The notes: generated by a model not told the origin, from the sequence alone. A DNA stretch of 64,000 bases from Candidatus Woesearchaeota archaeon (GCA_018303185.1 JAGVYR010000066.1:29553-93552); one strand, 5' to 3'. Counted from the first letter of the stretch, positions 24,617 to 43,272 are shown. Numbers and translations: made by a program.

Positions 24617-25315
24617 ATGCAGGTCGTGATATTGTGCGGGGGAAAAGGCACGAGGCTGAGCGAGTTTACTGACAGCTTACCGAAGCCTCTTGTTGAGATA
24701 GGGAATAAGCCGATACTCCGCCACCTCATGGAGCTTTATGCGGGCCATGGCCACCGCGATTTTATACTGTGCCTTGGCTATAAGGGCGACAGGATAAAGG
24801 AGCATTTCAAAGGCAGCACCCCAAAGGACTGGAGCATAATTTTTGCCGATACCGGAGAAGACTCAAACAAGGCAGAAAGGCTGATGAGAATAAAAAACAG
24901 GATAAAAGAGGATACTTTCCTTGTATCTTACGGCGATGACCTGAGCGATGTGGACATGGATAAGCTGGTTAAATTTCACAAAAAAAATGGAAAAGTAGTT
25001 ACCCTTACTGCTGTCCCTTTGATGTCCCCTTTTGGAATCATGGAACTGAATAAAGACAATGAAGTGACGCAGTTTAAAGAAAAGCCAAAGCTCAATCACT
25101 GGATGAACGGCGGATTTTACGTCTTCAGCAGGGACATATTCAATTACCTGAAAAGCGGGCATGACCTCGAGAAAGGGGCTTTTGAAGCGCTTGCAAAGGA
25201 AAAAAAGATTGCGGCTTTCAGGCACGAGGGCTTCTGGAAAAGCATGAACACATTAAAGGATGTAATTGAGCTGAATGAGATGTTTGAACGGGGAGAGATG
25301 CCATGGATAAGATGA
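24617..25315 (+). CDS. rfbF: Glucose-1-phosphate cytidylyltransferase
   Basis: MQVVILCGGKGTRLSEFTDSLPKPLVEIGNKPILRHLMELYAGHGHRDFILCLGYKGD. Confidence 0.85.
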   Translation: MQVVILCGGKGTRLSEFTDSLPKPLVEIGNKPILRHLMELYAGHGHRDFILCLGYKGDRIKEHFKGSTPKDWSIIFADTGEDSNKAERLMRIKNRIKEDTFLVSYGDDLSDVDMDKLVKFHKKNGKVVTLTAVPLMSPFGIMELNKDNEVTQFKEKPKLNHWMNGGFYVFSRDIFNYLKSGHDLEKGAFEALAKEKKIAAFRHEGFWKSMNTLKDVIELNEMFERGEMPWIR

Positions 25316-26274: not shown

Positions 26275-26282
26275 AGCCTATC

Positions 26283-28238: not shown

Positions 28239-28239
28239 C

Positions 28240-28860
28240 TTAACCTTCCAAAATCCTTATGAGCTTATCCTTGAGCTCTTCAAACCTTTCCTCAGAAAGC
28301 ACAACTTTCCTCACAGGCTTCATCTTTACGAATTCTTCCCCTGAATCATCCCTAAAAGCCTGCTTCTTCCCGAATGAGCTGTCGACCGTGTAAGGCTGCC
28401 CTATGTTTCCCCTGAAAGGGAATATCTTGATGTGAAGATGCTCTTTCTTCTCCAGCCATGTGGTGCATTTTCCATAAATGGCAACTGAAGCGGCACCATC
28501 TTTTTTCTTTGAGGCTGCTTCAAGCTTTTTCTCAGACATCATTACCTCTGTAAGCGCCCTGCTGGCCTTTGAGAATATCCTGCCGTAATTCTCGGCAAGC
28601 TTGGGATATAAATCAATCTGCGAGAAATGAGTAAGGTGCGCGAAAGGCATTATCTGTATTGTGAAATCTTCCTCGGGATTGCTTCCTGTTTTCGGGGAAA
28701 GTGTTGCAAACCATCCGTCCTTTTTGCTTCCAACCCTGCATATTATGGCTGCGCCGTATTCGGTCTTGTCTCCGACTTTAAGGGCGATTTCCCTGCATAG
28801 GTTGCATTCTTTAGACATTTTTGCTGCCTCGCTGAACAGCTTTTCAGGTTCTTTTGCCAT
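28240..28860 (-). CDS. HIT-family (histidine triad) nucleotide hydrolase/transferase
   Basis: N-terminal CNLCREI (the HIT CxxC start) and histidine triad EHLHIKIFP. Confidence 0.65.
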   Translation of the reverse strand: MAKEPEKLFSEAAKMSKECNLCREIALKVGDKTEYGAAIICRVGSKKDGWFATLSPKTGSNPEEDFTIQIMPFAHLTHFSQIDLYPKLAENYGRIFSKASRALTEVMMSEKKLEAASKKKDGAASVAIYGKCTTWLEKKEHLHIKIFPFRGNIGQPYTVDSSFGKKQAFRDDSGEEFVKMKPVRKVVLSEERFEELKDKLIRILEG

Positions 28861-28861
28861 T

Positions 28862-29950
28862 TTAATTATCCAATACTCTTATGTATTCTCCGTCTCTCAT
28901 GCCCGATATGTAGCTGTCAAAATACCCAACGACTATCCTGTTGTGTTTCCTGCCTGACTTTTCAGACACTTCCTCAACTGTGCCGCTCACTTCAATATTC
29001 TCTCCGGGATATGCAAGCATGCAGTAATCCCTTGAATAAAAGGCTACTTTATCAATTTTAATATTTTCGCACGATTTGTCTCCGGAGACAAATTTTGAGC
29101 CTGAAACAGCATAGCAGCCCGGCCTTACAATGGAATCCGCATTCGCAGAAACTTTTGCCTTTACCTTGGCGTGCCCTATTTTTTTATAGTGCTCCTGCCC
29201 CCATTTGAACCATGTCTCGCCTTCATTTTCAACTGCAAATATGACGAATAAGGTATTTTTAAAAAATCCCTCTGACTTTTTCCTGTGCATGTTCTCAATG
29301 TAGGTTTCCTTTTTATGCACCATGTGCCTGTTCCTTTTGGTGTAGAAGTGCTCCCATTCTTCATAGGTTTTCCACCTTAAATCCTTGTCCTGCGCTTTCT
29401 CAAGATATTTCATAAGCTCCCAGAATTTTTTCTTTCCGTAGACGACAATGTTTATGTCTGATATGTTCTGGGAATAATGCCCCATTAAAGTTGAATAAGT
29501 TATGCCAAAATCCCCGAGCTTAAGCCCGCTTTTCATCAAAAGAGCGGCAAATTCTGATACTGTCTTAAGATGAAAGTCCATATCTTTGGGAGGAATGCTC
29601 ATCAGCTCCCTAAGCCCGTCTCTTGGCGAGTATTCTTTTTCTATATTTTCCTTGGGAATGGCGAAGAACAATGGGCTTATGTCGTGCATGTCGCTCTTGT
29701 AGATGTAGCCGGGATAAGCCCTGATAAATGCCTTGATATACTCGCTTAATTTCTCCCTGTTTATCCACAGGTCAAGCCGGTTCATCTTCTTTCCTGAAAG
29801 GAATCTTGAAGGCAGGGCATCGCTTGAAATCCTGTCCGTGGGAATGTATTTCGGCTTTACAAGAATCCTGCCCGGAGGATGCTCATTCCCGTAGACCTGG
29901 CAGTGCATGCCCTCTTTTGTTGTGATTATTGTAGATTCGTAGAAGTGCAT
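28862..29950 (-). CDS. Pol-beta-fold nucleotidyltransferase with N-terminal extension and C-terminal OB-like barrel (paralog 1)
   Basis: NTase motif TLMGHYSQNISDINIVVYG (G-x-SDhDh). The C-terminus reads NIEVSGTVEEVSEKSGRKHNRIVVGYFD. Confidence 0.45.
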   Translation of the reverse strand: MHFYESTIITTKEGMHCQVYGNEHPPGRILVKPKYIPTDRISSDALPSRFLSGKKMNRLDLWINREKLSEYIKAFIRAYPGYIYKSDMHDISPLFFAIPKENIEKEYSPRDGLRELMSIPPKDMDFHLKTVSEFAALLMKSGLKLGDFGITYSTLMGHYSQNISDINIVVYGKKKFWELMKYLEKAQDKDLRWKTYEEWEHFYTKRNRHMVHKKETYIENMHRKKSEGFFKNTLFVIFAVENEGETWFKWGQEHYKKIGHAKVKAKVSANADSIVRPGCYAVSGSKFVSGDKSCENIKIDKVAFYSRDYCMLAYPGENIEVSGTVEEVSEKSGRKHNRIVVGYFDSYISGMRDGEYIRVLDN

Positions 29951-29951
29951 T

Positions 29952-31022
29952 TTATATCAGAGCCTTCATGTACTCTTTTTTCCCCCTGTCTGAAGTGTAA
30001 GTGTCAAAATAGCCAAGGACAAGCTGATAGTATTCCTCTTTGCCTTTTACTTTCTCAAGAAGGCCGCACGCTTCAACTTTCTCCCCTTCTTTGGCCTGCA
30101 GCGCAAAAGGCCTTGCCCACGTAACAATTCTTTTTACCGGAACTTCCTTGTGCCCTTCCAGTATTTTTGTGTTTTCAAGCTCATAGAAGCCCGGCCTTAC
30201 TATAGAATAGCGTGCATCCTTTACAGTGCCACTTATTTTCACAGTGCCGAGCGGCTCATGCTCCTCTTCCCAATTGTACCATCCCTTGCCTTCTTCAATG
30301 CAGAAAAGCGAGAATACATTTCCGTCTATGAAGCCGTCATCCCTCTTTCTTGCCATGTTCTTTGCATATTCCTGCTCGCTGTAAACTTCTGACACTATCC
30401 TGTCCCTGAAGTACCTTGCCCAGTCCTGCTCTGATTTCCACTTCAGCGCGGGATGGGAGCGCGTTTCGAGGTGCTTCACTGCCTTCCAGCCGTTTTCTAT
30501 TCCGAAAATGAGTATGTCCATGTCCGATTTCCCCGGCGTGTAATTTCCAAGCAGCGTTGAGTGGCTTATTCCCAGATTTTCATTGCTTATGCCTGCATCA
30601 TTCAGTATGCCTGTCATTTCCCTTACAGCTTTAAGGTACGGGTCCAAATCTTCAACAGGGACTTTAAGCAGCTCCTGAAAGCCTTTTTTTGTATCATAGA
30701 ATTTCTCCACCTTGCCTTCAGGCACCCCTAAAAACCAGTTCCTGTGTTTTTTGCATTCGTATATGTAGTATGGGAATTTTTTCCTTATTGCTGCAAGATT
30801 TTTCTCGACAGATTCCTTTTTGTTGAAAAGATTAAAGCGGAACATGCACTTTCCGAAAAGAAACCTCTTTTTGAGGCCTACGAGGTCCAGAGTGCCGCAT
30901 GGTATGTACTTCGGCTTCGCTATAATGAACCCCTTAGGATGCGAAGAGCTGTACACCTTGAACTGTATGCCGTCAGCTGAGTCTATCAATGCCGCCTCAT
31001 AGTATTTTCCCACATCTTCCAC
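29952..31022 (-). CDS. Pol-beta-fold nucleotidyltransferase, paralog 2 of 28862..29950
   Basis: STLLGNYTPGKSDMDILIFG. It is colinear with paralog 1 throughout (VYSSSHPKGFIIAKPKYIP vs VYGNEHPPGRILVKPKYIP). Confidence 0.45.
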   Translation of the reverse strand: MEDVGKYYEAALIDSADGIQFKVYSSSHPKGFIIAKPKYIPCGTLDLVGLKKRFLFGKCMFRFNLFNKKESVEKNLAAIRKKFPYYIYECKKHRNWFLGVPEGKVEKFYDTKKGFQELLKVPVEDLDPYLKAVREMTGILNDAGISNENLGISHSTLLGNYTPGKSDMDILIFGIENGWKAVKHLETRSHPALKWKSEQDWARYFRDRIVSEVYSEQEYAKNMARKRDDGFIDGNVFSLFCIEEGKGWYNWEEEHEPLGTVKISGTVKDARYSIVRPGFYELENTKILEGHKEVPVKRIVTWARPFALQAKEGEKVEACGLLEKVKGKEEYYQLVLGYFDTYTSDRGKKEYMKALI

Positions 31023-31143
31023 CCAAAATGCCCTTATTAAGCAATAAAAAGGTTTTTAAAAACGTATAAAAACATTGTGTTTTATAGGGCTTAATCGAAG
31101 GAGAGTAACAACAGCCAGAAAGGGGGGGTTTTCACAATAAAAC

Positions 31144-31198
31144 CGCGAGGCGAGCGTTATGCATGAGAGCGAGCCTCGCGACAACCATTGCGGAGCGG
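31144..31198. repeat. GC-rich 55-nt hairpin repeat, copy A (copy B at 58476..58530)
   Basis: cgcgaggcgagcgttatgcatgagagcgagcctcgcgacaaccattgcggagcgg. About 90% identical to copy B, with an 8-bp stem cgcgaggc/gcctcgcg. Confidence 0.6.
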
Positions 31199-31296
31199 AT
31201 TGACAATAAAAATAACGAAAAACCAATAAGAAAAACAATAAAACAAATCAACACAAAAATATCCTAAAATAATAAATAAACAAAAGCAAAAATCTT

Positions 31297-31836
31297 ATGG
31301 AAAACAGACAAAGCTGGACTCTTTGGTTCATTGGGCTGCACGGCTCCGGAAAGACAACAATATCCTCAAGGATAGCTGATATCCTAAGGAAAAAAGGCAT
31401 GGAAATTGTGCTGCTTGACGGCGATGAAGTCAGGAAAAGCATATCCTCGGATTTGGGATACAGCTTAGAGGACAGGAATATCCACATGCAGCGTGTTGCT
31501 GACCTATGCAGCCGCCTCAATAATGAAGGAAAGATGGTGATTGCCGCAGTTGCCTCCCCAACAGAAAAGTCAAGGGACTATGCAAAAAAGGCGATAAAAA
31601 ACTTCTTCACAGTGTATGTAAAATGCCCGCTGGAAATCTGCGAGAAGAGGGATGTAAAGGGCCACTATAAGAAAGCCCGCCTTGGAGAGAAGGGATTCGA
31701 GCATTTTCTCGGCATAGGCATCAGGTTTGAGGAGCCGAAGAATCCTGACATAGTGCTTGAGACTTCAAAATATGCAGTGGAAGAATGCGTTGGTGTGCTT
31801 CTTGGGAAGATGAAGGAGAGAAATATTCTTCGGTAA
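31297..31836 (+). CDS. cysC: Adenylylsulfate (APS) kinase
   Basis: LWFIGLHGSGKTTISSRIADILRKKGMEIVLLDGDEVRKSISSDLGYSLEDRNIHMQRVADL...CEKRDVKGHYKKARLGE. Confidence 0.85.
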   Translation: MENRQSWTLWFIGLHGSGKTTISSRIADILRKKGMEIVLLDGDEVRKSISSDLGYSLEDRNIHMQRVADLCSRLNNEGKMVIAAVASPTEKSRDYAKKAIKNFFTVYVKCPLEICEKRDVKGHYKKARLGEKGFEHFLGIGIRFEEPKNPDIVLETSKYAVEECVGVLLGKMKERNILR

Positions 31837-32440
31837 ACCATTGGAAAACCAGTTGGCAATAAAATAACTATTCAGGGCATAGGGCTAAAGTTACATACCG
31901 TGGATAGTGAAGATTTCTTCCTGTTTACAGATGATGAGAGAGTTATGAAGAAGCCGCCTTATATGACGTATTACGGGGCTGAACACGATATAACAGTCTA
32001 CAATAATCCAAAAATATACGTTCAACAAAAAATAATAGAAATAAATGGGACCGTTATAAATTGTAAACGAGAAGATGATGGAAAATATTGCATAAATGCT
32101 GAATCAATTAAAATTTTAAACGAATTTGCAAATGCTTAGATACAATAGTTTTTTACAATTAATTGTCAAAAGCATTAATCACTATTTTTGGCTTAGATTT
32201 CCAGTATACAAACGCTTGATGGTGAGGTTTATTTTCAAAAGCTTTTGTTGTTTTATTTACATTAAAATAATCACATACGTGAATCGATAAACCAAGTCCT
32301 TTTGTAAATTGTCTCAAATCAATCAAAAATTTACATGATAAAGGAGTTTAATAAATTTAGGTCTTTAGCTTAAGAAACCACAATCTTTATATATAAGATA
32401 GTCTTACTAATAAGATATTCTTATCAAGGAGGCGAACAAA

Positions 32441-32698
32441 ATGGAAAAATTGGAAATAACAAGTATGAGTTCAAGAGGGCAGGTAGTTATTCCTTTAGAC
32501 ATTAGAGAACAGCTTGGATTAAAGGAAGGTGAGAAATTTGTTGTTGTTGGAGAAGATGATACAGTTATCTTGAAAAAAGTAACCATGCCTTCCTTCAAAA
32601 ACTTTGATAAATTAATTCAAAGAACACAGCAGTTTGCAAAAGAAAAAGGAATAACTCCAGTCGATGTTAAGAGTGCCATAAAGAGAGCTAGAAAATGA
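32441..32698 (+). CDS. AbrB/SpoVT-family antitoxin
   Basis: SSRGQVVIPLDIREQLGLKEGEKFVVV (swapped-hairpin barrel motif). Confidence 0.7.
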   Translation: MEKLEITSMSSRGQVVIPLDIREQLGLKEGEKFVVVGEDDTVILKKVTMPSFKNFDKLIQRTQQFAKEKGITPVDVKSAIKRARK

Positions 32699-33096
32699 AA
32701 GTAGTTCTTGACACAAATATATTTATTTCTGGAATCTTTTGGAAAGGTAGTTCCAACAAAGTTATAACTAATTGGAGAGAAGAAAAATTTACACTGGTTA
32801 CTTCTTTAGAAGCAATTTCAGAAATAATAAAAGTCCTCAAAGATTTTAAAATCAAGCTTTCAGATGAAATGATTAAAGAATGGGTTGATTTGATTGTAAG
32901 AAATTCTATGATTGTAGATCCAAAAGAAAAAATTGAGGCAGTTAAAGATGATCCAAAAGACAATATTTTCATTGAAACTGCTGTAGTTGGAAATGCGGAC
33001 TATATTATTTCGCAGGATAATCATTTGTTAAAATTAAAGGATTTCGGAGGAATTAAAATAATCACACCTGAAGAATTCGACAAAATATGTAACTGA
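32695..33096 (+). CDS. PIN-domain (VapC-like) toxin
   Basis: MKVVLDTNIFISGIF..., with a 4-nt ATGA overlap with the antitoxin gene. Confidence 0.7.
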   Translation: MKVVLDTNIFISGIFWKGSSNKVITNWREEKFTLVTSLEAISEIIKVLKDFKIKLSDEMIKEWVDLIVRNSMIVDPKEKIEAVKDDPKDNIFIETAVVGNADYIISQDNHLLKLKDFGGIKIITPEEFDKICN

Positions 33097-33369
33097 GTTT
33101 CCTCCACCCAACTACTACGACGAACCTTTTTCTCGCCTCTATACTGATTCTCGATGTACCGCTTTGCTCATTTGATAGAACGCCCTCCTTCTCAACTCCG
33201 CTGACGCGATTTTCGGAGCCTTGCAACAGAAAACAAAATTAACCGGAATTCCGTATGTTATTGGCTAAAAAAGTTAAGGCTTTGAATCTGCTGAACTGAG
33301 TGAAGCCCGTCTTGCGGCAAAGCCTAAAACCCATATAAATTTAAAAACCATGCTCTATTCTTAGGCAAA

Positions 33370-34209
33370 ATGGTGGAATCAGTAAAAGAATTGAGGAAAA
33401 TCTGCTATAAAGACTCCGGAAAGAAAAGGCCGCTCTACATGGAGCTGGTTACCATGAAATTCTCCATATACGTGACCAAGCTGTCCCTTTACACTCCTAT
33501 TGGCGCTGACCAGGTTTCCATGCTGATGATACTGCTTACGTTTATAGGGGCGGGCATGATTGCTTTCGGTAATCTCTGGTGGATGCTTGCCGGCATTTTA
33601 ATCGCGCATTTCACGATAGTGCTTGACAATGTAAACGGAGAGGTCGCAAGATACAGGAAGGAAGGCAGCCTCATAGGAACGTATCTTGAGGAAGTCTACC
33701 ACTCTGTCGCGGAGCCTCTTGTATTCTTCGCTTTCGGTTACGGAATATTCAGGAACACAGGATGGGAATCTGCAATACTGTTCGGATTCATCTGCTCCCT
33801 GTTCGTCCCGCCAATAATAATATCCTCAATAAAAAATGCTGTCGTAAAAAAGGGGATAGACCGATTAGAGAGCAGGGAAGGCATGCTGCCTAAAAAATAC
33901 ACTTTGCTCAATGAAAAGATAAACCTGAAGGGCGGAAGCACAAGAGCAGGATCAAAATTCTATGCCCTTTACGGCAAAATCAACGAGCTGTGGGGCTTTC
34001 CTTTCAATTTTGTGCACATAAACATAATCATAGCGCTGGAGATAATAAACCTCAGCTACAGCGTCATCCCTGAATTTTACCTTTCTTTTGGCTATATAGC
34101 AGCTTACGGAACTGCCAATTTCATCATACAAATCGCTTCCTTCATAGTGCATTACAAGGGAAGGACAATTTTCCACTACTACAACGCCCTGTTCGGCAAC
34201 AAGAAGTAA
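33370..34209 (+). CDS. Membrane protein with degenerate CDP-alcohol phosphatidyltransferase-like motif
   Basis: DNVNGEVARYRKEGSLIGTYLEE resembles D-x2-DG-x2-AR...G...D...D, but the last acidic residues are replaced. Confidence 0.35.
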   Translation: MVESVKELRKICYKDSGKKRPLYMELVTMKFSIYVTKLSLYTPIGADQVSMLMILLTFIGAGMIAFGNLWWMLAGILIAHFTIVLDNVNGEVARYRKEGSLIGTYLEEVYHSVAEPLVFFAFGYGIFRNTGWESAILFGFICSLFVPPIIISSIKNAVVKKGIDRLESREGMLPKKYTLLNEKINLKGGSTRAGSKFYALYGKINELWGFPFNFVHINIIIALEIINLSYSVIPEFYLSFGYIAAYGTANFIIQIASFIVHYKGRTIFHYYNALFGNKK

Positions 34210-34211
34210 AA

Positions 34212-35630
34212 ATGAAGACTGCCAGAAGGATAACAGCGAATTTTCTCAGCCTGCTTTCAGCGGAAATGCTCTCCAGAGTAGTGCAGCTTGCCATCTTCAT
34301 TTTTCTTGCCCGCTACCTTGGAAAGGAGGCTTTTGGCATTATAAACTTCTCAATGGCTTTTGCCATGATAATTCTTATAGTGGCCGATTTCGGCTTCAGC
34401 ACTTTCCTCATAAAGGAGATTGCCACAAAAAAGAACAAGGCTGCACAGATTGTCTCCAACTCGCTCATATTGAAATTCCTTCTGGGCGCGGCATCATTCC
34501 TGATTGCTTACATCTCTTTAGAGGTGCTTGGATACGGCAGCGACGTAAAAGTTATATCCTATGTGATGGTGCTCTTCGCGATAGTGCAGTCTTTCACATT
34601 CGTATATTACTCTGTTTTCAGGGCATTCGAAAAGATGTATTACGACGCTATCGTCAAGGTGATAAGGATATCATTGCTTGCCGCAATGGTATATGCGGGT
34701 TTTGCCATGAATTACGGGCTTCTCTGGATTGCGTCTTCATTCCTCATAACAGAAATTGCAGTGCTCTTTGTTTCTGCTGCTATAGCCTACTCAAAATTCA
34801 TCCCGCTTTCTTTCAGGGCCAGCCTGCCGTTCTCCATGAGGCTTCTTTCAGAATCCTCATTGTTCTGCTTCTCAATGGCGTTTGCCGGGATTTTCATGTA
34901 TATAGACATTGTAATCATTTCAAAGATAAGGGGAAATGCCGAAGTCGGCATCTACAGCGCGGCTTACAACATACTCCTTGCCCTCATATTTATCCCCATG
35001 ATGTATGCAAATGCCATATTTCCGGTAATATCGCGCCTGCACATTTCATCCAAAAACAGCCTTTCCTTTGCCTACCAGAAGTCATACAAGTACATGCTAA
35101 TTGCGGGGCTTCCTGTCTCTGCAGGAGTGTTTGTGCTTTCAAGGAACATCATAAATTTCCTTTACGGCCAGGAATACGGTGCTGCAGTGCTTGCATTAAA
35201 AATACTTTCCGGCTACATGTTCCTCAGGTTCATCAATATAATTTCAGGATTTACCCTCTCATCCATGGACAGGCAGAAATCCCGGGTCGTGAGCCAGGGC
35301 GCTACCGCAGTAATGAACATTGCCCTTGACCTTATCCTTGTGCCGATATTCGGATTCATAGGAGCTGCAATCGCAACTTTGATTACGGAAGTTTTTTTCT
35401 TCTTTCTTTACAGCTACTTCATAATAAAGTATGGCATAAAAAACAGGTTCTTCAGCGTGGCTGTAAAGCCGATAATTGCAGTGGCCGCCATGTCTGTCAT
35501 TGTAAGCTGGATAAGCGACCTGTTTTACGGCTTTATAGCGGGGGCGCTTGTCTACGGCTCCATGCTTCTAATCCTTGGGGCATTTGACAGGGAAGACATC
35601 ACTCTATTGAAGAGGGTGCTTAAGAATTAG
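34212..35630 (+). CDS. Wzx-like polysaccharide flippase (MOP superfamily)
   Basis: About 12-14 TM helices with a typical Wzx N-terminus. Confidence 0.6.
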   Translation: MKTARRITANFLSLLSAEMLSRVVQLAIFIFLARYLGKEAFGIINFSMAFAMIILIVADFGFSTFLIKEIATKKNKAAQIVSNSLILKFLLGAASFLIAYISLEVLGYGSDVKVISYVMVLFAIVQSFTFVYYSVFRAFEKMYYDAIVKVIRISLLAAMVYAGFAMNYGLLWIASSFLITEIAVLFVSAAIAYSKFIPLSFRASLPFSMRLLSESSLFCFSMAFAGIFMYIDIVIISKIRGNAEVGIYSAAYNILLALIFIPMMYANAIFPVISRLHISSKNSLSFAYQKSYKYMLIAGLPVSAGVFVLSRNIINFLYGQEYGAAVLALKILSGYMFLRFINIISGFTLSSMDRQKSRVVSQGATAVMNIALDLILVPIFGFIGAAIATLITEVFFFFLYSYFIIKYGIKNRFFSVAVKPIIAVAAMSVIVSWISDLFYGFIAGALVYGSMLLILGAFDREDITLLKRVLKN

Positions 35631-35767: not shown

Positions 35768-36715
35768 TCATTTATCCCCTTTAAAAAACTCAATCGTCTT
35801 CCTGAGCCCGTCTTCAAGGCTTACTTTCGGCTCCCATCCAAGCTCCTTCCTTGCTTTTGTTATGCCCGGCCTCCTTACATGGGGATCGTCTGTAGGAAGG
35901 GGCCTGAATGTGATTTTGCTTTTGCTTCCTGTAAGCTTTATTATAATGTCGGCAAACTGCAGCATATCATACTCATCGGGATTACCTAAATTAACTGGGT
36001 CGTTTATATCTGACATCATGAGCCTGTAAATGCCGTCTATTAAATCGGAAACGTAGCAGAAGCTTCTTGTTTGCTTCCCGTCTCCGAAAACAGTTATTGG
36101 CTTTCCCTCAAGAGCCTGCGAAATAAAGGCAGGCACAACGCGGCCGTCATTTTTCCTCATCCTTGGGCCGTAAGTGTTGAATATCCTGACAATCTTTGTA
36201 TCAAGCTTATGTATCCTGTGGTATGCCATCACAAGCGCTTCCGCAAACCTCTTTGCCTCGTCATAACAGCCCCTTGGGCCAACAGGATTTACATTGCCCC
36301 AGTAGCTCTCAGGCTGCGGGTTTACTTCAGGGTCGCCATAGACTTCGGAAGTTGATGCGAGAAAGTATTTCGCCTTTTTTGCCAGGGCAAGCCCGAGAGT
36401 GTTGTGCGTTCCCAAGCTGCCTGCCTTAAGCGTCTGTATAGGTATCTTCTGGTAGTCTATCGGGGATGCAGGCGAGGCAAAATGAAGCACGTAATCGATT
36501 TTTTCCTCGATTTTTATGAATTTTGAAATATCCTGATTGATGAATGAAAAATTTCCATTTTTATTGAGATGTTCAATGTTCTTTTTGCTGCCAGTTATAA
36601 GGTTGTCCATGCATATTACTCTGAAGCCCTTCCCAAGAAGGAATTCGCACAGGTGGCTTCCCAGAAATCCTGCCCCTCCAGTTACAAGCGCTGCCTTCAT
36701 TTTCTGCTGCTCCAT
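35768..36715 (-). CDS. UDP-glucuronate decarboxylase (UDP-xylose synthase)
   Basis: [42 protein letters not shown], strongly UXS-like. Confidence 0.8.
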
Positions 36716-37440
36716 ACTATATCGGCCTGCTTCAGCTGCTCCCTGCTTCCGATGTCAAACCATGTTTCCCTGAATACATGCCCAAATACTGTGCTGTTCT
36801 TTATCAGGTACTTTATGAAATCTCCAAGGTTGTCGGGCTTGCTGTTTTCCTTTATGCATTTCTCCATCAGGGCCATATCCTTCCTTGAGAAGATGTAGCA
36901 TGCAGTGCTCACCAGAGTCGTTTTAGGGCTTTCAGGCTTCTCTTCAAGCGCCTTTATGCTTCCATCTTTGCCTGTCTCCACAACTCCGTACTTTTTTGCG
37001 GCAAGGCTTCCGTCAAGAATGTCGTACAATGCTATTGAAGATGTTTTTTTCTCAAGGAAAAGCTGCTCAAGCGCCGCAAGGCTGAAATCAAAAAGATTGT
37101 CACCTGCAATGACCATTATGTCATCGCTGATTTTTTCGCTTTGCATCACAAAATGCATGTCTCCTATTGCGCCAAGCCTCTTCTCCTCTGTTTTTGTGCG
37201 GTCGTTCACTATCTTTATTGGCTTTTGCGATGAGAATGAAAGCTTCCATTTCCTGAAAGAATCGTAGAACTTGTCATTTGTGACCACAAATATTTCATCA
37301 ACACTGTCAACCTTCTCAACCTTTGCGATTATGTGCTCTATTATCGGCCTGCCGGCTATTGGAAGGAGGGGCTTTGGCTGGTCAAGAGTTATCGGATAGA
37401 GCCTTGTCGCATATCCTGCGCAGAGTATTATGCATTTCAT
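36697..37440 (-). CDS. Sugar-phosphate nucleotidyltransferase
   Basis: [38 protein letters not shown]. Confidence 0.75.
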
Positions 37441-37442
37441 CT

Positions 37443-38738
37443 TTATCTTCCCATGCTGATATATCTTATTCCTGATTTTTCCATTTCACTTGGGCCGTAT
37501 ATGTTCCTTCCGTCTATGACAAGCGGAGTTTTCATCAATTTTCCGATTTTCGCAAAGTCAATCTCCATGAATTCGCTCCATTCTGTAAGTATAAGGAGCG
37601 CTTCTGCATCATTTGCAGCTTCATAGGCATCTTTGCAGTATTCTATATTCCTGAACAAAGCTTTTGCCTTTTCCATGGCTTCGGGATCGTATGCTTTTAT
37701 CTTCGCCCCTTCCTTCTGCAGCTCCGATATTATGTAAATCGAAGGCGCTTCCCTCATGTCGTCGGTATTCGGCTTGAAGGCCAGCCCAAGGACGGCAATC
37801 TTTTTGTCCTTCAGGTTCCATACGGCATCCTTGACTTTCTTCACAAAAGCGGCTTTCTGCCGCTTATTGACTTCCTGCACTTCTCTTAGCAGCTTAAAAT
37901 CGTACCCGTTCTTCTCAGCTATCTTTACAAATGCATCCACATCCTTTGGAAAGCATGAGCCTCCGTAGCCTATGCCCGCATTCAGGAATGCCCTTCCTAT
38001 CCTTTTGTCAAAGCCCATCCCCTCTGCAACCTGCTCCACATTTCCACCGGTCTTCTCGCATATATTCGCAACGGCATTTATGAAAGATATCTTTGCCGCG
38101 AGGAATGAGTTGGAAGCGTGCTTTATTATCTCGGCGCTGTTTATGTCTGTAAAGAGTATGGGGGCCTTTAAGGGTGCGTAAAGCTTCCTGAATATCTCCC
38201 TTGCCCTTTCACTTTCAGCCCCGACAACTATCCTGTCGGGCTCCATGAAATCCTTTATCGCTGTCCCTTCCCTGAGGAATTCTGGATTTGAAGCAACATC
38301 AAACTCAATGCCTTTTCTGCAGAACCTCCTTATGGTTTCTTCGACTTTCCTGCCTGTCTGCACAGGAACAGTACTTTTCTCAACGACAAGCTTGTACCTG
38401 TCAATGTGCTCTGCAACCATCCTTGCCGTGTTCTCGACATAGGACAGCTCCGCATCCCCGTCAGCTTTTGGCGGAGTTCCGACACATACAAATATTACAT
38501 CTGCAAAGGTTATTGCTTTTTTTAAGTCGACAGTGAAAGAAAGCCTTCCGTCCTTTATGTTTCTCTGAACAAGCTCCTTAAGGCCCGGCTCGTAAATTGG
38601 CATCTCTCCCCTGTTGAGAGTCGCTATCTTGCTCTCGTCTATGTCAGCGCACACCACACTGTTGCCCAATTCCGAGAGGCATGTGCCGCTCGTAAGGCCG
38701 ACATATCCTGTCCCGATTATTGCTATCCTCATAGGCAT
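37443..38738 (-). CDS. UDP-glucose/GDP-mannose 6-dehydrogenase family
   Basis: IAIIGTGYVGLTSGTCLSELGNSVVCADIDESKI. Confidence 0.85.
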   Translation of the reverse strand: MPMRIAIIGTGYVGLTSGTCLSELGNSVVCADIDESKIATLNRGEMPIYEPGLKELVQRNIKDGRLSFTVDLKKAITFADVIFVCVGTPPKADGDAELSYVENTARMVAEHIDRYKLVVEKSTVPVQTGRKVEETIRRFCRKGIEFDVASNPEFLREGTAIKDFMEPDRIVVGAESERAREIFRKLYAPLKAPILFTDINSAEIIKHASNSFLAAKISFINAVANICEKTGGNVEQVAEGMGFDKRIGRAFLNAGIGYGGSCFPKDVDAFVKIAEKNGYDFKLLREVQEVNKRQKAAFVKKVKDAVWNLKDKKIAVLGLAFKPNTDDMREAPSIYIISELQKEGAKIKAYDPEAMEKAKALFRNIEYCKDAYEAANDAEALLILTEWSEFMEIDFAKIGKLMKTPLVIDGRNIYGPSEMEKSGIRYISMGR

Positions 38739-38790
38739 TGCTTATGGAAAGTTATTTAAATATCTTACCTTTATCCTACCTTATGCTACC

Positions 38791-39588
38791 ATGAAGAAGA
38801 AGATTTCCATAACCATAGATGAGAACACGCTGCACGACATAGACTCAATAGTTGACAACATCTACATAAGAAACAGGTCACAGGCGATAGAGCACCTAGT
38901 CAAAAGCAGCCTTGGGGAGAAAAAAAGCGCCGTGATACTTCTTGGCGGCCCTGAGGAGCATCTTCTCATTTCTCCGGATGAATTCAGGCCAACTGCAATG
39001 GTAAAGGGCAAAAGAGTCATTGAGCTCGCACTGAAGAAGCTCCGCGAAAACAATTTCAGGTCTGTTTACATCATAGCAAGAGGCGGTTTGCTCACAAGGC
39101 TCTTCGACATACTGAAGGACGGCTCCCAATACGGAGTTAAGATAATCTATACAGAGGAGAAAAGCTGCAGCGGCACTTTCGATTCGCTGAAGCTGCTTAA
39201 GGGAAAGATTGGCGGCAACTTCCTTGTTGTCTACGGGGATGTAATCTTCAATAAGATAAGCATAGAGGAGCTCTGGAACGACCACATAAGGCAGAATTCC
39301 GTTGCCACGATAATGCTGACGACTTCCTCAAAGCCTTCGGAAAAGGGCACTGTAAGGGTTGAGGGCAACCGCGTCCTAAGCTTCACCCAGAAGCCTAAGA
39401 AATCCGACATCTACCTTGTATTCTCTCCCATCTTCATTACAGAGCCCCAGATATTCGAATATTCCGGCAAAAGCCTTGAATCAGATGTTTTCCCTGAGCT
39501 TGCTGAAAAAGGGCTTCTTAACGGGCATTTGAGCTCTGAGAAAGAAGTGCATATTCACTCAAAAGCTGATATAACGGGGTTTAGATAG
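38791..39588 (+). CDS. Ribbon-helix-helix (CopG-like) domain fused to a degenerate sugar-nucleotidyltransferase domain
   Basis: N-terminal RHH (KISITIDENTLHDIDSIVD...RNRSQAIEHLVK). The NTP-transferase fold follows (ILKDGSQYGVKIIYTEE, LVVYGDVIF). The GGxGTRL loop is replaced by LLGGPEEHLLISPDEFRP. Confidence 0.55.
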   Translation: MKKKISITIDENTLHDIDSIVDNIYIRNRSQAIEHLVKSSLGEKKSAVILLGGPEEHLLISPDEFRPTAMVKGKRVIELALKKLRENNFRSVYIIARGGLLTRLFDILKDGSQYGVKIIYTEEKSCSGTFDSLKLLKGKIGGNFLVVYGDVIFNKISIEELWNDHIRQNSVATIMLTTSSKPSEKGTVRVEGNRVLSFTQKPKKSDIYLVFSPIFITEPQIFEYSGKSLESDVFPELAEKGLLNGHLSSEKEVHIHSKADITGFR

Positions 39589-40463: not shown

Positions 40464-40757
40464 GTGCTCATGGTATCCAAAGAAGACGTAATAAAAGTCC
40501 TTGAGCAGGTACAGGACCCTGAGCTTGGCATGGACATATATTCTTTAGAGCTGATTTACGAGATTAAGGTGGAAGATGGCAAAGTATATGTGAAGATGAC
40601 CTTCACAACGCCAATGTGCCCCTACGGCCCTATGCTTCTTGATGAAGTCAAATACAGGCTGTCTGAGATTAAGGGCGTGAAGGAAGTAGATGTTGAAGTT
40701 TCTTTTGACCCCCCGTGGGAGCCTTCGCCTGAATTAAGGGCTACGCTTGGGGTTTAG
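40464..40757 (+). CDS. DUF59/MIP18-family Fe-S cluster assembly protein
   Basis: VLEQVQDPELGMDIYSLELIYEIKVEDGKVYVKMTFTTPMCPYGPML. Confidence 0.7.
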   Translation: MLMVSKEDVIKVLEQVQDPELGMDIYSLELIYEIKVEDGKVYVKMTFTTPMCPYGPMLLDEVKYRLSEIKGVKEVDVEVSFDPPWEPSPELRATLGV

Positions 40758-41824
40758 AAATCCGTCAGCTTCTTCGCCTGCCCGTACTTGACTATTGTAG
40801 TTTTGCCGTCTTTGCCGCCTGAAACTTTTTCGGTGGAAATGAACTTGTTCTCGCTTAATTTCTCAATCTTCCTCTGGAATGATTTATACACTAAAGAGCC
40901 GCCCTTGCCATGGTAAATCTTGAATAATTCTCCTATCTTCGACTCCGAATTCGCCCGGCATATATCCAGTATCATCTTCTCATCCGAAGCCAGCTCATCG
41001 CTGCTCTTGACTGTGAGATGGTCAATCTTCTTTATCGCTTCTTCCACATCCCTTAATTCAATTTTCCTTGAGGACCTGTTTTCCGCAGCCAAAGCCGCTT
41101 CTCTCATAAGATGAAGCCCTGTTCTCATGTCTTCAAGCTCTGCTGTCTTTTTTGCAATCGTCTCAAGGGCATCTGCCTCAAGCACATTAGGCGGAAAGGC
41201 GTATTCTGACCTTTGCTTCAGTATGCCTCTTGTTTCATTCAAATTATAGGGCCTGAACTCTATCATTTCCGGCAGTAATCTTGACTTTACCCTTAAATCC
41301 AGCTTGTCAATGAAATCATGGAAATTTGTTATCATGATTATTGATTTCTTGAATATCTCCTCAAGCATCGAATAGACAAGGTCAAAATCCTCAAGCTTGT
41401 CCACTTCATCCAAAGCTATTACAGCAGCTTTCCTGTTCAGTATCCCCTTTACAATGTTGAAAAGCTCGTCAGTCCTTTTGTTGTGCGTAAACTTATATTT
41501 CAGGATCTCGCACATTTCCATCAGAAGCTTAAAGCTGGAGTTTTTCTGCCAGCAGTTTATGTATATGGGGATGACTTCATCAGTCTCGTCTTCCAGCTCA
41601 TTGAGAACGTGCCTTATCGCTGCTGTCTTCCCTACCCCAGGCGGCCCGTGGATGAAAACATTCCTGCCGTTCCTTCCTTCAAGCAAAGGCCTTATGCATC
41701 CCGCAACTTTCCGCTGCTCTGTCTCCCTGTAAAGTAAAGGCTTTGGTAAGTACTCGAAATCCAGCGGGTACTCGTCATTTATCAGTTCTTCATTGGATTT
41801 GAGCATATCCTTGAAAAGAGCCAT
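40754..41824 (-). CDS. Orc1/Cdc6 replication initiator
   Basis: AAA+ Walker A (VFIHGPPGVGKTAAIRHV), Walker B (IALDEVDKL), and a C-terminal winged helix. Confidence 0.85.
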   Translation of the reverse strand: MALFKDMLKSNEELINDEYPLDFEYLPKPLLYRETEQRKVAGCIRPLLEGRNGRNVFIHGPPGVGKTAAIRHVLNELEDETDEVIPIYINCWQKNSSFKLLMEMCEILKYKFTHNKRTDELFNIVKGILNRKAAVIALDEVDKLEDFDLVYSMLEEIFKKSIIMITNFHDFIDKLDLRVKSRLLPEMIEFRPYNLNETRGILKQRSEYAFPPNVLEADALETIAKKTAELEDMRTGLHLMREAALAAENRSSRKIELRDVEEAIKKIDHLTVKSSDELASDEKMILDICRANSESKIGELFKIYHGKGGSLVYKSFQRKIEKLSENKFISTEKVSGGKDGKTTIVKYGQAKKLTDF

Positions 41825-41976: not shown

Positions 41977-43272
41977 CTAATGCATCCTCATTTTCTCTAA
42001 TCTCTTTAAACCATTCATGTAGGGCTGCAGCACCTTCGGAATGTCTACAGTGCCGTCCTTGTTCTGGTAATTTTCCAGTATTGCCCTCAAAGCCCTTGAA
42101 GTTGCTATTGCAGTGCTGTTCAGCGTATGCACCGGCATTTTTTCAGCGCCTTTCTGGTATCTTATGTTCAGCCTGTTTGCCTGATAGGCAGTGCAGTTTG
42201 AGCATGACACGACTTCCTTGTACTCTTCTTCGCGGGGCATAAAGGCTTCTATGTCGTATTTTTTAGCTGCAACAATCCCAATGTCACCAGTGCAGATATT
42301 CACAACCCTGTAAGGCAGCTCCAGTTTTTTGAAAATGCTTTCTGCAATGGAAAGAAGCTCCTCGTGCATCTTCCATGAGTCTTCCTGCCTGCAAAAAATG
42401 AACATCTCAACCTTGTTGAAATGATGGACGCGGAAGAAGCCCCTTTCATCCACGCCATGGCTTCCCAGCTCTTTCCTGAAGCACGGGCTTATTCCTGCGT
42501 ATTTCTTTGGCAGCTCTTTTTCATTCATGGTTTTATCCTTTAACATTGCCGCAATCGGGTGTTCAGATGTCGCTATAAGATACAAATCCTCATTCTCAAT
42601 CTTGTACATCATCGTCTCGAAATCTGCAAGGTCGGTAACGCCTTCATAAGGCTCCCTCCTCAGCATCAAAGGCGGCTCTACAAGAGTGAAGCCTTTTTCT
42701 ATCAGGATGTCAAGGGCAAGCCTCTGCAAAGCAAGTTCCGTCCTTGCCAAATCCCCTAAGAGGTAATAAAATCCGTGCCCTGAATTCTTCCCTGCGTCAT
42801 CAAAATTAGCCATTCCCAATGATTCTGCAATCTCGCCGTGCGGCTTTAATTTGAAGTCAAACTTCTTTTTCTTTCCTTCTTCCTTCATGACTTTGTTTTC
42901 ACTGCTGTCTTTTCCGTACGGCACTGATTCATGCAGCATGTTCGGGATGTGCATGAGGTACCTGTCAACCTCTTCCTTGATTTTTACGGTCTTTTCCTGC
43001 GCTTCCTTCACTTTCCCGGGAATGTCCTTTGCTTCCTGCATTGCCCTTGACGCATCCTTGCCTTCTTTCTTCAGCTGCCTGATTTCATCAGTGACTTCAT
43101 TCCTTCTTTTTCTCAGACTTTGCTCATCCTGAAGCAGCTTCCTGTATTCCTCATCCTTCTTAACAAGGTCGTCAAACCAATCCAGAATTTTAGCATTTCT
43201 TCTTTTCTCAAGGTTCTTCCTAACTTCCTGAGTGTGTTCCCGCACGTATTTTATATCGAGCATTTTGCTCAA
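41977..43272 (-). CDS. serS: Seryl-tRNA synthetase
   Basis: N-terminal coiled coil with class II aaRS motifs (FRKELGSHGVDERGFFRVHHFNKVEMF...). Confidence 0.85.
   Translation of the reverse strand: MSKMLDIKYVREHTQEVRKNLEKRRNAKILDWFDDLVKKDEEYRKLLQDEQSLRKRRNEVTDEIRQLKKEGKDASRAMQEAKDIPGKVKEAQEKTVKIKEEVDRYLMHIPNMLHESVPYGKDSSENKVMKEEGKKKKFDFKLKPHGEIAESLGMANFDDAGKNSGHGFYYLLGDLARTELALQRLALDILIEKGFTLVEPPLMLRREPYEGVTDLADFETMMYKIENEDLYLIATSEHPIAAMLKDKTMNEKELPKKYAGISPCFRKELGSHGVDERGFFRVHHFNKVEMFIFCRQEDSWKMHEELLSIAESIFKKLELPYRVVNICTGDIGIVAAKKYDIEAFMPREEEYKEVVSCSNCTAYQANRLNIRYQKGAEKMPVHTLNSTAIATSRALRAILENYQNKDGTVDIPKVLQPYMNGLKRLEKMRMH

What the first reader, a model, noticed from the sequence alone, without database searches (positions are those of the whole stretch)
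38791..39588. RHH DNA-binding domain fused to a sugar-nucleotidyltransferase fold whose catalytic G-loop is degenerate
The N-terminus is a clear CopG-like ribbon-helix-helix. The rest aligns with RmlA-like NTP-transferases (DGSQYGVKIIY, VVYGDVIF). The nucleotide-binding GGxGTRL loop is replaced by GGPEEHLLISPDEFRP. This suggests an enzyme domain repurposed as a sugar-nucleotide sensor that controls transcription of the surrounding glycan genes. It sits at the edge of the island, next to ugd, uxs and an intact NTP-transferase.
Basis: partly seen in the sequence, partly recalled or inferred. Interest (0 to 1): 0.55.

Follow-up and report, generated by a model that had tools for sequence, protein, structure and literature searches.

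The report
Dead sugar-nucleotide enzyme turned gene switch
A small archaeal (Woesearchaeota) protein joins a DNA-binding ribbon-helix-helix domain to a catalytically crippled sugar-nucleotidyltransferase domain. It sits beside a strikingly conserved triple DNA repeat at the promoter of the UDP-xylose pathway genes, so it is very probably a local transcription factor, of an undescribed design, that senses a nucleotide-sugar.

Summary
ORF 38791-39588 (265 aa) has a NikR/CopG-type RHH at residues 1-45 and an RmlA/GDP-mannose-pyrophosphorylase fold at residues 46-265.

Several catalytic residues are lost. GGxGTRL has become GGPEEHL, and the second catalytic/metal Asp has become His254. The former G-loop is the most variable part of an otherwise highly conserved protein.

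New evidence supports a regulatory role:
- In about 40 of 46 reference genomes the gene is divergent from a ugd / sugar-1-P nucleotidyltransferase / UDP-glucuronate decarboxylase operon.
- The 52-bp gap holds a 40-bp block, near-invariant in 43 loci: a TATA box followed by three direct repeats TATCYTACC at a 10-11 bp period.
- The block occurs once in the 64-kb window.
- A metagenome scan using the repeat pattern alone recovered 120 contigs. The regulator lay just downstream in 96 of 107 testable contigs, and ugd lay divergently in 91 of 105.

Best reading: a local, probably autoregulated and probably repressing RHH factor whose pseudo-enzyme domain senses a nucleotide-sugar.

DNA binding, the ligand and the sign of regulation are all inferred, not shown. 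The regulon looks local rather than covering the whole glycan island. No literature on this architecture was found, and databases call the protein "hypothetical".

The parts
38791..39588 (+). Regulator CDS, 265 aa: RHH domain fused to an NTP-transferase-like pseudoenzyme domain
   Evidence: There are 755 word-index homologs. The top 120 are 74-80% identical and come from Woesearchaeota.
38791..38925 (+). Ribbon-helix-helix DNA-binding domain, residues 1-45. The beta-strand is KKISITI, helices span 11-20 and 29-40, and an NRS motif sits at 28-30.
   Evidence: The family profile hits the NikR RHH at E=2.7e-11. 35 of 38 members hit PF01402 at E<=0.1. K4, S6 and T8 align with NikR R3, T5 and T7 (alignment). 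That these are NikR's base-contacting residues is my own recollection.
38926..39585 (+). Sugar-1-phosphate nucleotidyltransferase-like domain, residues 46-265, predicted to be catalytically dead and to serve as the putative ligand sensor
   Evidence: PF00483 matches at E=4.7e-17. The family profile hits GMPPB 7d72_K at E=1.1e-42.
38944..38988 (+). Remnant of the G-loop, residues 52-66: GGPEEHLLISPDEFR. It replaces GGxGTRL...PK.
   Evidence: Alignments. No family member among 63 carries GTR in register. Arg occupies the catalytic-Arg column in only 4 of 63, and the Lys column reads R31/K16. This is the most variable segment in 114 close homologs.
39550..39558 (+). H254-I255-H256, which replaces the D-x-G of the WxDxG motif (the second catalytic/metal Asp)
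   Evidence: hhalign against the neighbouring active NTase and alignment to GMPPB/VTC1 FWMDIG. Asp is present in only 11 of 63 family members.
38755..38762 (.). TATA box TTTAAATA. It is 22 nt from the ugd start codon (ATG at 38732) and 28 nt from the regulator ATG. It is flanked by mirror-image purine-rich BRE-like arms, GGAAAG and GGTAAG.
   Evidence: palindrome I2. The TATA-to-ugd distance is conserved across loci. TATA boxes starting at -28 to -31 are typical of first genes in this window.
38761..38790 (+). Candidate operator: three direct repeats. R1 is TATCTTACC (38761-38769), R2 is TATCCTACC (38772-38780) and R3 is TATGCTACC (38782-38790). The period is 10-11 bp.
   Evidence: Near-invariant in 43 loci while the flanks are unconserved. 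Unique in the window. The pattern-only metagenome scan recovers the regulator and ugd.
37443..38732 (-). UDP-glucose 6-dehydrogenase (ugd), first gene of the predicted target operon. The start is revised to the ATG at 38732.
   Evidence: (TuaD, E=1e-177).
36697..37440 (-). Intact short sugar-1-phosphate nucleotidyltransferase (probable UDP-glucose pyrophosphorylase), second gene of the operon
   Evidence: (AglF-like, E=1.7e-27). The G-loop AGYATRL and the PKPLLP motif are present.
35768..36715 (-). UDP-glucuronate decarboxylase (UDP-xylose synthase), third gene of the operon
   Evidence: Human UXS1 (2b69, 4gll) matches at E=1.1e-107 over the full length.

Best explanation
The gene encodes a one-component transcription factor.

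Proposed mechanism:
- Its N-terminal RHH, presumably as dimers, binds the three 10-11-bp-spaced TATCYTACC repeats. These abut the TATA box shared by, or sandwiched between, the divergent promoters of the regulator and of the ugd / NTase / uxs (UDP-xylose) operon.
- Repeat 1 overlaps the BRE position of the ugd promoter. Repeats 2-3 cover the regulator's own start region. Occupancy would therefore most likely repress both transcripts.
- The C-terminal domain is a sugar-nucleotidyltransferase that can no longer carry out canonical catalysis. Its pocket remains under strong purifying selection. It most likely binds a nucleotide-sugar or precursor of the pathway (UDP-Xyl, UDP-GlcA or UDP-Glc) and thereby tunes DNA binding, giving feedback control.

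Shown here: the domain identities, the loss of catalytic residues, the synteny, and the conserved and specific repeat element.

Inferred: DNA binding to that element, the sign of regulation, and the ligand.
For: Domain identities: RHH and NTase fold.

Catalytic loss, mapped on VTC1/GMPPB residues (PMC9168903):
- Lost: T12->E56, R13->H57, K196->S231, D219->H254.
- Conservative change: K23->R66.
- Kept: G9->G53, D111->D150, G146->G186, E195->E230, and K201 of the E-K-P motif.
- Sources.

Inverted conservation: in 114 close homologs the G-loop remnant has entropy 1.34 bits against 0.47 for the whole protein, while the pocket motifs are invariant.

The degeneracy holds across the wider RHH-fused family, down to about 30% identity.

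Synteny: the regulator is divergent from ugd/NTase/uxs in about 40 of 46 GTDB loci, and the downstream genes are not conserved. Where an extra gene heads the operon (L033, L034), the element stays at the operon head.

Operator:
- A 40-bp block is near-invariant across 43 loci whose regulators are 57-80% identical. The flanks are unconserved.
- It occurs once in the window.
- The pattern-only scan of metagenomes gave 96 of 107 contigs with the regulator and 91 of 105 with ugd.
- The RHH beta-strand K-I-S-I-T is conserved in nearly all loci that carry the element.
Against: - There is no experimental or structural evidence for DNA binding or for any ligand.
- Part of the conserved block (TATA plus repeat 1) could be conserved simply as a promoter/BRE.
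- A few contigs carry the element and ugd with no adjacent regulator (L074, L087, L131, L167). A few regulators lack an adjacent element or ugd (L017, L025).
- D150, K201 and R66 are retained, so non-canonical catalysis cannot be excluded.
- Binding upstream of a TATA box can activate in archaea, so the sign of regulation is open.
- Distant family members show no conserved sugar-gene context.
Confidence: 0.6

Rival explanations
1. A bifunctional enzyme-repressor in the manner of PutA, BirA or NadR. The NTase domain would still be catalytically active through non-canonical residues (R66, K201, D150, His254/His256), and the RHH would couple enzyme state to transcription.
For: D150, K201 and the conservative K->R66 change are retained. 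His246, His254 and His256 are invariant in the 16-sequence alignment of close homologs and might substitute as metal ligands. The fold is fully intact at pLDDT 94.
Against: The loop that binds the NTP beta/gamma-phosphates is the least conserved part of the protein and carries acidic residues. No family member has GTR in register, and the catalytic-Arg column holds Arg in only 4 of 63. The second catalytic/metal Asp is present in only 11 of 63 members. An intact NTase is encoded two genes away, so the activity would be redundant.
Confidence: 0.1
2. A non-catalytic regulatory subunit of the neighbouring NTase or Ugd, analogous to GMPPA-GMPPB, GalF-GalU or the large subunit of ADP-glucose pyrophosphorylase. 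Here the RHH would serve mainly as a dimerisation module, and the conserved intergenic block would be only a strong bidirectional promoter.
For: There is precedent for inactive NTase paralogs that bind the product and inhibit the active enzyme (GMPPA; PMC11228364 abstract; PMC9168903). Co-occurrence with an active NTase is tight. The TATA box has mirror-symmetric BRE-like arms.
Against: The RHH residues that align with NikR's R3, T5 and T7, together with the NRS motif, are invariant. That these positions contact DNA in NikR is my own recollection. The conserved DNA extends about 30 bp beyond a TATA/BRE, as three phased repeats. The repeat core also appears in inverted orientation in a subclade, which is expected for a protein-binding site and not for a promoter. 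The protein lacks the LbH domain that mediates GMPPA-GMPPB contacts (length 265 aa).
Confidence: 0.12
3. A ligand-independent RHH regulator, or a transcriptional activator. The NTase-like domain would be only an oligomerisation scaffold that positions RHH dimers on phased repeats.
For: RmlA-type NTases are obligate dimers or tetramers (my own knowledge). Three phased sites call for a higher-order oligomer. In loci with two TATA boxes the repeats lie upstream of both boxes, a position from which archaeal activators can act.
Against: The pocket-lining motifs are invariant or nearly so in close homologs: G128-T129, Y148-G149-D150, K185-G186-T187, Q200-K201, E230 and H254-I-H256. A mere scaffold would not require this.
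Confidence: 0.15

Closest known systems
NikR (nickel-responsive RHH regulator)
   Same: The N-terminal RHH is the closest sequence match (1q5v E=2.7e-11, 2bj1 E=6.8e-7). The design logic is the same: an RHH DNA-binding domain followed by a C-terminal ligand-binding, oligomerising domain, acting as a local repressor with a small-molecule corepressor.
   Different: The C-terminal domain is an NTP-transferase fold, not the ACT-like nickel-binding domain. The candidate operator is three direct 10-11-bp repeats, not two inverted half-sites about 16 bp apart. No nickel-site motif is present.
GMPPA (inactive paralog of GDP-mannose pyrophosphorylase) and, by my own recollection, GalF and the large subunit of ADP-glucose pyrophosphorylase
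   Same: A sugar-nucleotidyltransferase fold that has lost catalysis and is used as a sensor for feedback control of a nucleotide-sugar pathway (PMC11228364, PMC9168903). The family profile's best PDB hits are GMPPB at E=1.1e-42 and GMPPA at 3.3e-24.
   Different: Those proteins act by protein-protein allostery on the active enzyme and carry a C-terminal LbH domain. This protein has no LbH and instead carries a DNA-binding RHH, so its output would be transcriptional.
Enzyme-derived or enzyme-fused repressors: NrtR (Nudix-like + wHTH), PutA (RHH + proline dehydrogenase), BirA, ROK/Mlc (own knowledge)
   Same: The same principle applies: a metabolic enzyme fold is recruited as the effector-sensing module of a transcription factor that controls the cognate pathway.
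   Different: Both the enzyme fold and the pairing with a DNA-binding domain differ. I found no description of an RHH + PF00483 architecture in the searchable literature.
RHH repressors that bind arrays of short repeats (omega, CopG, Arc, ParG, MetJ; own knowledge)
   Same: Short recognition units are repeated in phase. The units are tolerated in direct or inverted orientation, as in subclade L110/L129/L133/L143, which suggests cooperative binding of several RHH dimers.
   Different: Those are small stand-alone RHH proteins, or use SAM in the case of MetJ. None has an NTase-like domain.

Membership tests
Sugar-1-phosphate nucleotidylyltransferases (PF00483; RmlA/GalU/GMPP), as an active enzyme | Rossmann-like NTase fold | tested here: met
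   PF00483 matches at E=4.7e-17, above the gathering score. AF2 pLDDT is 94.3. Foldseek TMq is 0.72-0.76 to VTC1, RmlA and CugP-like 8x7s.
Sugar-1-phosphate nucleotidylyltransferases (PF00483), as an active enzyme | N-terminal G-loop GxGT(R)L with the PPi/NTP-binding Thr and Arg (VTC1 Gly9/Thr12/Arg13; PMC9168903) | tested here: not met
   The sequence is GGPEEHL: Thr has become Glu56 and Arg has become His57. The column is variable across 63 family members, with Arg in 4 of 63. This is the highest-entropy segment in 114 close homologs.
Sugar-1-phosphate nucleotidylyltransferases (PF00483), as an active enzyme | Lys of the (P)K(P)L motif (VTC1 Lys23) | tested here: inconclusive
   It is replaced by Arg66. 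The family column reads R31/K16 of 63. The positive charge is kept.
Sugar-1-phosphate nucleotidylyltransferases (PF00483), as an active enzyme | The two catalytically critical Asp residues (VTC1 Asp111 and Asp219, PMC9168903; they correspond to RmlA D111/D226 and are Mg2+ ligands by my own recollection) | tested here: not met
   The first is kept as D150 (59 of 63). The second is His254 (family column H25/N20/D11 of 63).
Sugar-1-phosphate nucleotidylyltransferases (PF00483), as an active enzyme | E-K-P motif and the Glu-Lys pair (VTC1 Glu162, Glu195-Lys196) | tested here: inconclusive
   The protein has Q200-K201-P202, with the Lys kept. E230 is kept, but Lys196 has become Ser231 at a variable column.
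Ribbon-helix-helix (CopG/Arc/MetJ/NikR) DNA-binding superfamily | An N-terminal beta-strand followed by two helices, detectable by sequence profile | tested here: met
   Profile against the NikR RHH gives E=2.7e-11, and against CopG 5.5e-3. 35 of 38 members match PF01402 at E<=0.1. AF2 helices span 11-20 and 29-40.
Ribbon-helix-helix (CopG/Arc/MetJ/NikR) DNA-binding superfamily | Dimerisation through the paired beta-strands, and sequence-specific binding to repeated operator subsites | not testable with these tools
   Only a monomer could be modelled. A candidate operator of three phased repeats was found and is strongly conserved and specific, but binding itself was not tested.
NikR | C-terminal ACT-like tetramerisation domain with a His/Cys nickel site | tested here: not met
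   The C-terminal 220 residues have an NTase fold. NikR similarity is confined to residues 2-45.
GMPPA-type pseudo-pyrophosphorylase sensors | An inactive NTase domain plus a C-terminal left-handed beta-helix that contacts the catalytic paralog. The domain binds the product NDP-sugar. | tested here: not met
   No LbH domain is present: the protein ends at residue 265 and has no PF00132 hit. Foldseek alignments cover only the NTase domain of GMPPA/B. Ligand binding is not testable here.

The most novel reading that the evidence does not exclude
This would be the founding, directly testable example of a previously undescribed class of one-component regulators. A NikR-like RHH is fused to a dead NDP-sugar pyrophosphorylase that reads the intracellular level of a nucleotide-sugar and feeds back on transcription of its biosynthetic operon. 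Such RHH-NTase fusions form a large family: 598 clusters at 50% identity score E<1e-10. They occur in DPANN archaea, and at least one sits on a contig that looks bacterial. If this reading is right, they would be a widespread metabolite-sensing system in organisms for which almost no transcriptional regulation is known.
Probability: 0.4. Interest if true: 0.75.

Novelty: new variant of a known kind. Interest (0 to 1): 0.6.

Why it matters
Transcriptional regulation in DPANN archaea, which are uncultivated and have reduced genomes, is essentially uncharacterised. This locus offers a complete and compact testable system:
- a 265-aa regulator;
- a 30-bp operator defined at nucleotide resolution by phylogenetic footprinting;
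- a three-gene target pathway (Glc-1-P to UDP-Glc to UDP-GlcA to UDP-Xyl).

If the pseudo-enzyme domain senses a nucleotide-sugar, it would be a transcription-level counterpart of the GMPPA/GMPPB feedback loop, and a rare example of a transcription factor that responds to a nucleotide-sugar. It would also assign a function to a large family now annotated as "hypothetical" or mis-annotated as "NDP-sugar pyrophosphorylase". Finally, it warns against counting these genes as enzymes in metabolic reconstructions of DPANN genomes.

Tried and rejected
It was not found. The conserved element consists of direct repeats. The only palindromes are the BRE-like arms around the TATA box and a 12-nt pair that reaches into the CDS and is probably chance.
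- Island-wide regulon. Rejected, because the two-repeat pattern, even with mismatches allowed, occurs only at 38761-38790 in the 64-kb window. Single 8-mers occur at chance frequency (38 observed against 30 expected).
- Literature. Three searches for RHH + nucleotidyltransferase/pyrophosphorylase found nothing relevant. The archaeal dark-matter review does not mention this architecture.
- Taxonomic range and names for the wider family. A second word-index search with distant members returned only 39 unnamed hits. The cluster look-up gave only one generic name and no organism. The AFDB fold library was unavailable.
- Context of five distant family members. There is no conserved sugar-gene neighbourhood, so the ugd link is specific to the Woesearchaeota clade.
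- Predicting base specificity from the residue five positions before G128. Glu123 corresponds to the guanine-binding acidic residue of VTC1. However, the neighbouring active NTase has Glu at the same position, and a Glu lies nearby in the UDP-glucose enzyme 8x7s. No conclusion was drawn.
- A Nudix identity for the extra gene facing the element in L033, L068 and L151. A Nudix-box-like motif is visible by eye, but Pfam gives no hit, so the idea is not supported.
- The sigma-70 promoter scanner was not used, because the organism is archaeal.

Full report
**1. The observation**

The ORF at 38791-39588 (+) encodes 265 aa starting MKKKISITIDENTL. The mechanical ORF can be extended to a TTG at 38614, but that stretch overlaps ugd on the other strand, and all homologs start at the ATG.

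- NTase domain. Pfam PF00483 (NTP_transferase) matches residues 47-230 at E=4.7e-17. An AlphaFold2 model built on a 63-sequence family alignment is confident (mean pLDDT 94.3, pTM 0.86). Foldseek against the PDB puts it among GDP-mannose pyrophosphorylases (VTC1 7x8j, E=4.7e-19, TMq 0.72), RmlA enzymes and the GMPPA/GMPPB complex. A family profile hits GMPPB at E=1.1e-42.
- RHH domain. The single sequence is only weakly NikR-like (TIGR02793 E=2.9e-4). A profile of the first 46 residues from 38 family members hits the RHH of E. coli NikR at E=2.7e-11, P. horikoshii NikR at 6.8e-7 and CopG at 5.5e-3. 35 of 38 members match Pfam RHH_1 at E<=0.1, best 1.8e-9. The model shows helices at 11-20 and 29-40 after an extended N-terminus. 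K4, S6 and T8 align with NikR R3, T5 and T7, which are its DNA-contacting residues by my own recollection.

So both halves of the fusion are real.

**2. Loss of catalytic residues**

Three alignments give the same register: profile-profile alignment to the intact NTase two genes away, and HMM alignments to GMPPB/VTC1 and to RmlA. Residue roles come from the VTC1 structure paper (PMC9168903).

| VTC1 residue | Role | This protein |
|---|---|---|
| Gly9 | PPi/NTP site | G53 (kept) |
| Thr12 | PPi/NTP site | E56 (lost) |
| Arg13 | PPi/NTP site | H57 (lost) |
| Lys23 | PPi/NTP site | R66 (conservative change) |
| Asp111 | catalytically critical | D150 (kept) |
| Glu195 | catalytically critical | E230 (kept) |
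| Lys196 | catalytically critical | S231 (lost) |
| Asp219 | catalytically critical | H254 (lost) |
| Gly146 | sugar contact | G186 (kept) |
| Gly85 | base contact | G128 (kept) |

E-K-P reads Q200-K201-P202.

Across 63 RHH-fused family members, down to about 28% identity:
- No member has GTR in register, and the Arg column holds Arg in only 4 of 63.
- The second Asp column holds Asp in 11 of 63.
- D150 is kept in 59 of 63.

In 114 close homologs the former G-loop (residues 54-65) is the most variable stretch of the protein, apart from the C-terminal tail. Its mean entropy is 1.34 bits against 0.47 for the whole protein. The remaining pocket motifs are invariant or nearly so. This pattern is the opposite of what I recall for active NTases, where the G-loop is the most conserved motif. 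Canonical catalysis is therefore very unlikely, yet the pocket is under selection.

**3. Who carries it**

The word-index search found 755 homologs. The top 120 are 74-80% identical, about 265 aa long and from Woesearchaeota or Nanoarchaeota MAGs. They are named "hypothetical protein" or "NDP-sugar pyrophosphorylase family protein".

The exhaustive search of 50%-identity representatives found 4463 hits at E<1e-3, 598 at E<1e-10 and 50 at E<1e-30. Most of the best 150 are 250-290 aa and align from residue 1-3, so they carry the RHH.

Five distant members were placed on contigs. Two of those contigs carry archaeal-type genes (deoxyhypusine synthase and IF5A; NMD3). One carries a GreA/GreB-family gene and so looks bacterial. 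None has the ugd context.

**4. Genomic context**

The upstream genes on the minus strand are:
- ugd (TuaD E=1e-177, AglM E=4e-126);
- a short NTase with intact AGYATRL and PKPLLP motifs (AglF-like);
- a UDP-glucuronate decarboxylase (human UXS1 E=1.1e-107).

Together these form a Glc-1-P to UDP-Glc to UDP-GlcA to UDP-Xyl pathway.

In 46 GTDB species-representative loci, about 40 carry the regulator divergent from ugd, usually followed by the NTase and uxs. Genes downstream of the regulator are not conserved. In L033 and L034 an extra gene heads the operon.

**5. The intergenic element**

The gap between ugd and the regulator is 52-58 bp in the window. Aligning 43 loci on this gap reveals the block TATTTAAATATCTTACCnTTATCCTACTTTATnCTAC. 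It is almost invariant, while the flanking intergenic DNA is unconserved, and the regulators themselves range from 57 to 80% identity.

In window coordinates:
- TATA box TTTAAATA at 38755-38762;
- R1 TATCTTACC at 38761-38769;
- R2 TATCCTACC at 38772-38780;
- R3 TATGCTACC at 38782-38790;
- regulator ATG at 38791.

The period is 11 then 10 bp, so the repeats fall on one face of the helix.

The TATA-to-ugd start distance is conserved at about 22 nt if ugd starts at the ATG at 38732 (MRIAIIGTG). That matches the -28 to -31 TATA position seen for other first genes in this window, which implies leaderless transcripts. The TATA is flanked by mirror-image purine-rich arms, GGAAAG and GGTAAG, consistent with a bidirectional promoter. 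Repeat 1 occupies the BRE position of the ugd promoter. Repeats 2-3 lie between the TATA and the regulator's start.

In a more distant clade (L029, L030, L035, L037, L045 and others) a second TATA follows the repeats, so the repeats lie between two back-to-back promoters.

**6. Specificity of the element**

- The two-repeat pattern occurs once in the 64-kb window. About 0.07 matches are expected by chance, and 7 of 100 shuffles gave one.
- It occurs essentially only at this position in about 450 kb of related loci.
- A blind scan of JGI metagenome contigs used only the DNA pattern ATATCTTACYNTTATCCTACYT.
- Of the 107 contigs with at least 400 bp downstream, 96 encode the regulator within 600 bp on the same strand. 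Of the 105 with at least 400 bp upstream, 91 encode ugd divergently within 1.5 kb.
- Three contigs (L062, L063, L130) are one unrelated sequence and count as a chance match.

Informative variants:
- A subclade with about 50% identical regulators has the third copy inverted (TTATCCTA-cTTTT-TAGGATAA).
- In L162 the element faces a GHMP sugar kinase.
- In L068 and L151 it faces an unannotated 279-314-aa protein.
- In a few marine contigs the element and ugd lack an adjacent regulator.
- Two reference loci (L017, L025) have the regulator without ugd or the element.

The RHH beta-strand K-I-S-I-T is conserved in nearly all loci that carry the element.

**7. Interpretation**

The most economical reading is a local, autoregulated RHH transcription factor.

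- Several RHH dimers, held by the oligomerising NTase-like domain, would bind the phased repeats. This would occlude the BRE/TATA of the ugd operon and the start region of the regulator's own gene.
- The NTase-like pocket would report the level of a pathway nucleotide-sugar.
- The logic parallels NikR (an RHH plus a ligand domain) on the DNA side. On the sensing side it parallels GMPPA, an inactive GDP-mannose pyrophosphorylase paralog that binds GDP-mannose and restrains GMPPB (PMC11228364, PMC9168903).

What remains inferred: DNA binding, repression versus activation, whether there is a ligand, and which one.

Rivals that the data do not exclude:
- a bifunctional enzyme-repressor with non-canonical catalysis;
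- a protein-level regulatory subunit, with the DNA block being only a promoter;
- a ligand-independent scaffold.

The variable acidic G-loop, the invariant residues aligned with NikR's DNA contacts, the length and phasing of the conserved DNA, and the invariant pocket each argue against one of these rivals.

**8. Novelty**

Ligand-responsive RHH regulators are well known, and so are sensors derived from enzymes. I found no description of an RHH + PF00483 architecture or of this operator. Public annotations call the protein hypothetical or an enzyme. I therefore class it as a new variant of a known kind, with a complete and readily testable system.

It needs two corrections: the operator is direct repeats rather than a palindrome, and the regulon is local rather than island-wide.

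Noticed in passing
window 38730-38738 (- strand): The ugd ORF as listed starts at the ATG at 38738 (MPMRIAIIG...). Alignment of 43 loci and the conserved 22-nt distance to the TATA box indicate the real start is the second ATG at 38732 (MRIAIIGTG), giving a leaderless mRNA.
   Followed up: yes
L002, L003, L004, L010, L014, L018, L023, L046 (between the operator and the regulator ATG): In several genomes a 200-500-bp insert separates the repeat element from the regulator gene. Some inserts share sequence, for example GGGTTTCGCCCCTTGAGGACGAGRAACTTTTT(C)GCGAAAAAGTTCCATCAAAAA in L004 and L014 with related copies in L023 and L046, and they contain hairpin-like repeats. This suggests a small mobile (MITE-like) element. 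In these loci the operator stays with ugd.
   Followed up: partly
L110, L129, L133, L143 (metagenome contigs), at the motif position: A subclade with about 50% identical regulators has the third repeat inverted, forming the palindrome TTATCCTA-CTTTT-TAGGATAA after one or two direct copies. A 100-aa unannotated ORF, conserved in three of these loci, lies about 240 bp upstream on the other strand.
   Followed up: partly
L162 (upstream of the motif); L068, L151 and L033:5007-5909: In some contigs the element faces genes other than ugd. One is a GHMP-family sugar kinase (PF00288, E=3.5e-8), whose GNPSDGFNG N-terminus reminds me of glucuronokinase (recollection only). Another is an unannotated 279-314-aa protein with a Nudix-box-like REx2EE motif but no Pfam hit. 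These are possible further regulon members tied to nucleotide-sugar metabolism.
   Followed up: partly
L074, L087, L167, L131, L070: These contigs carry ugd and the repeat element but no adjacent regulator. In L070 the regulator lies 2.6 kb away. L017 and L025 have the regulator but no ugd or element nearby. The module can evidently be split.
   Followed up: no
window 38739-38750 and 38804-38815: A 12-nt inverted repeat, 92% complementary (TGCTTATGGAAA / TTTCCATAACCA), brackets the whole promoter/operator. The right arm lies in codons 5-9 of the regulator, which encode the RHH beta-strand. The left arm is not conserved in other loci, so this is probably chance.
   Followed up: partly
window 21209-35630: The adjoining glycan gene cluster contains GT2 and GT4 glycosyltransferases, methyltransferases and a PHP-domain protein. 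It also has a second intact NTase + SDR pair (24617-25315, 25303-26274), an adenylyl-sulfate kinase (31297-31836, E=7e-52) and a Wzx-like flippase (34212-35630). The kinase hints at sulfated glycans. None of these genes carries the repeat element upstream.
   Followed up: partly
P0237 (413 aa, distant family member): One distant family member has an extra N-terminal region of about 140 aa that itself begins with an RHH-like strand-helix (MVKTTIQISEGLRKSLKILAS...). This suggests further domain accretion in the family.
   Followed up: no
L047/L048 (contig with P0272): A distant RHH-NTase family member (about 29% identity) sits on a 183-kb groundwater contig that also encodes a GreA/GreB-family protein. 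The family may therefore extend into bacteria, perhaps CPR.
   Followed up: no
window 40754-41824 and 41977-43272: An Orc1/Cdc6-like AAA+ protein (judged by eye from the translation) and a seryl-tRNA synthetase-like ORF lie just downstream. Together with the homologs' source this supports an archaeal (Woesearchaeota) origin. Contig L101 (Ga0209211_10042453) is 100% identical over the regulator and ugd.
   Followed up: partly
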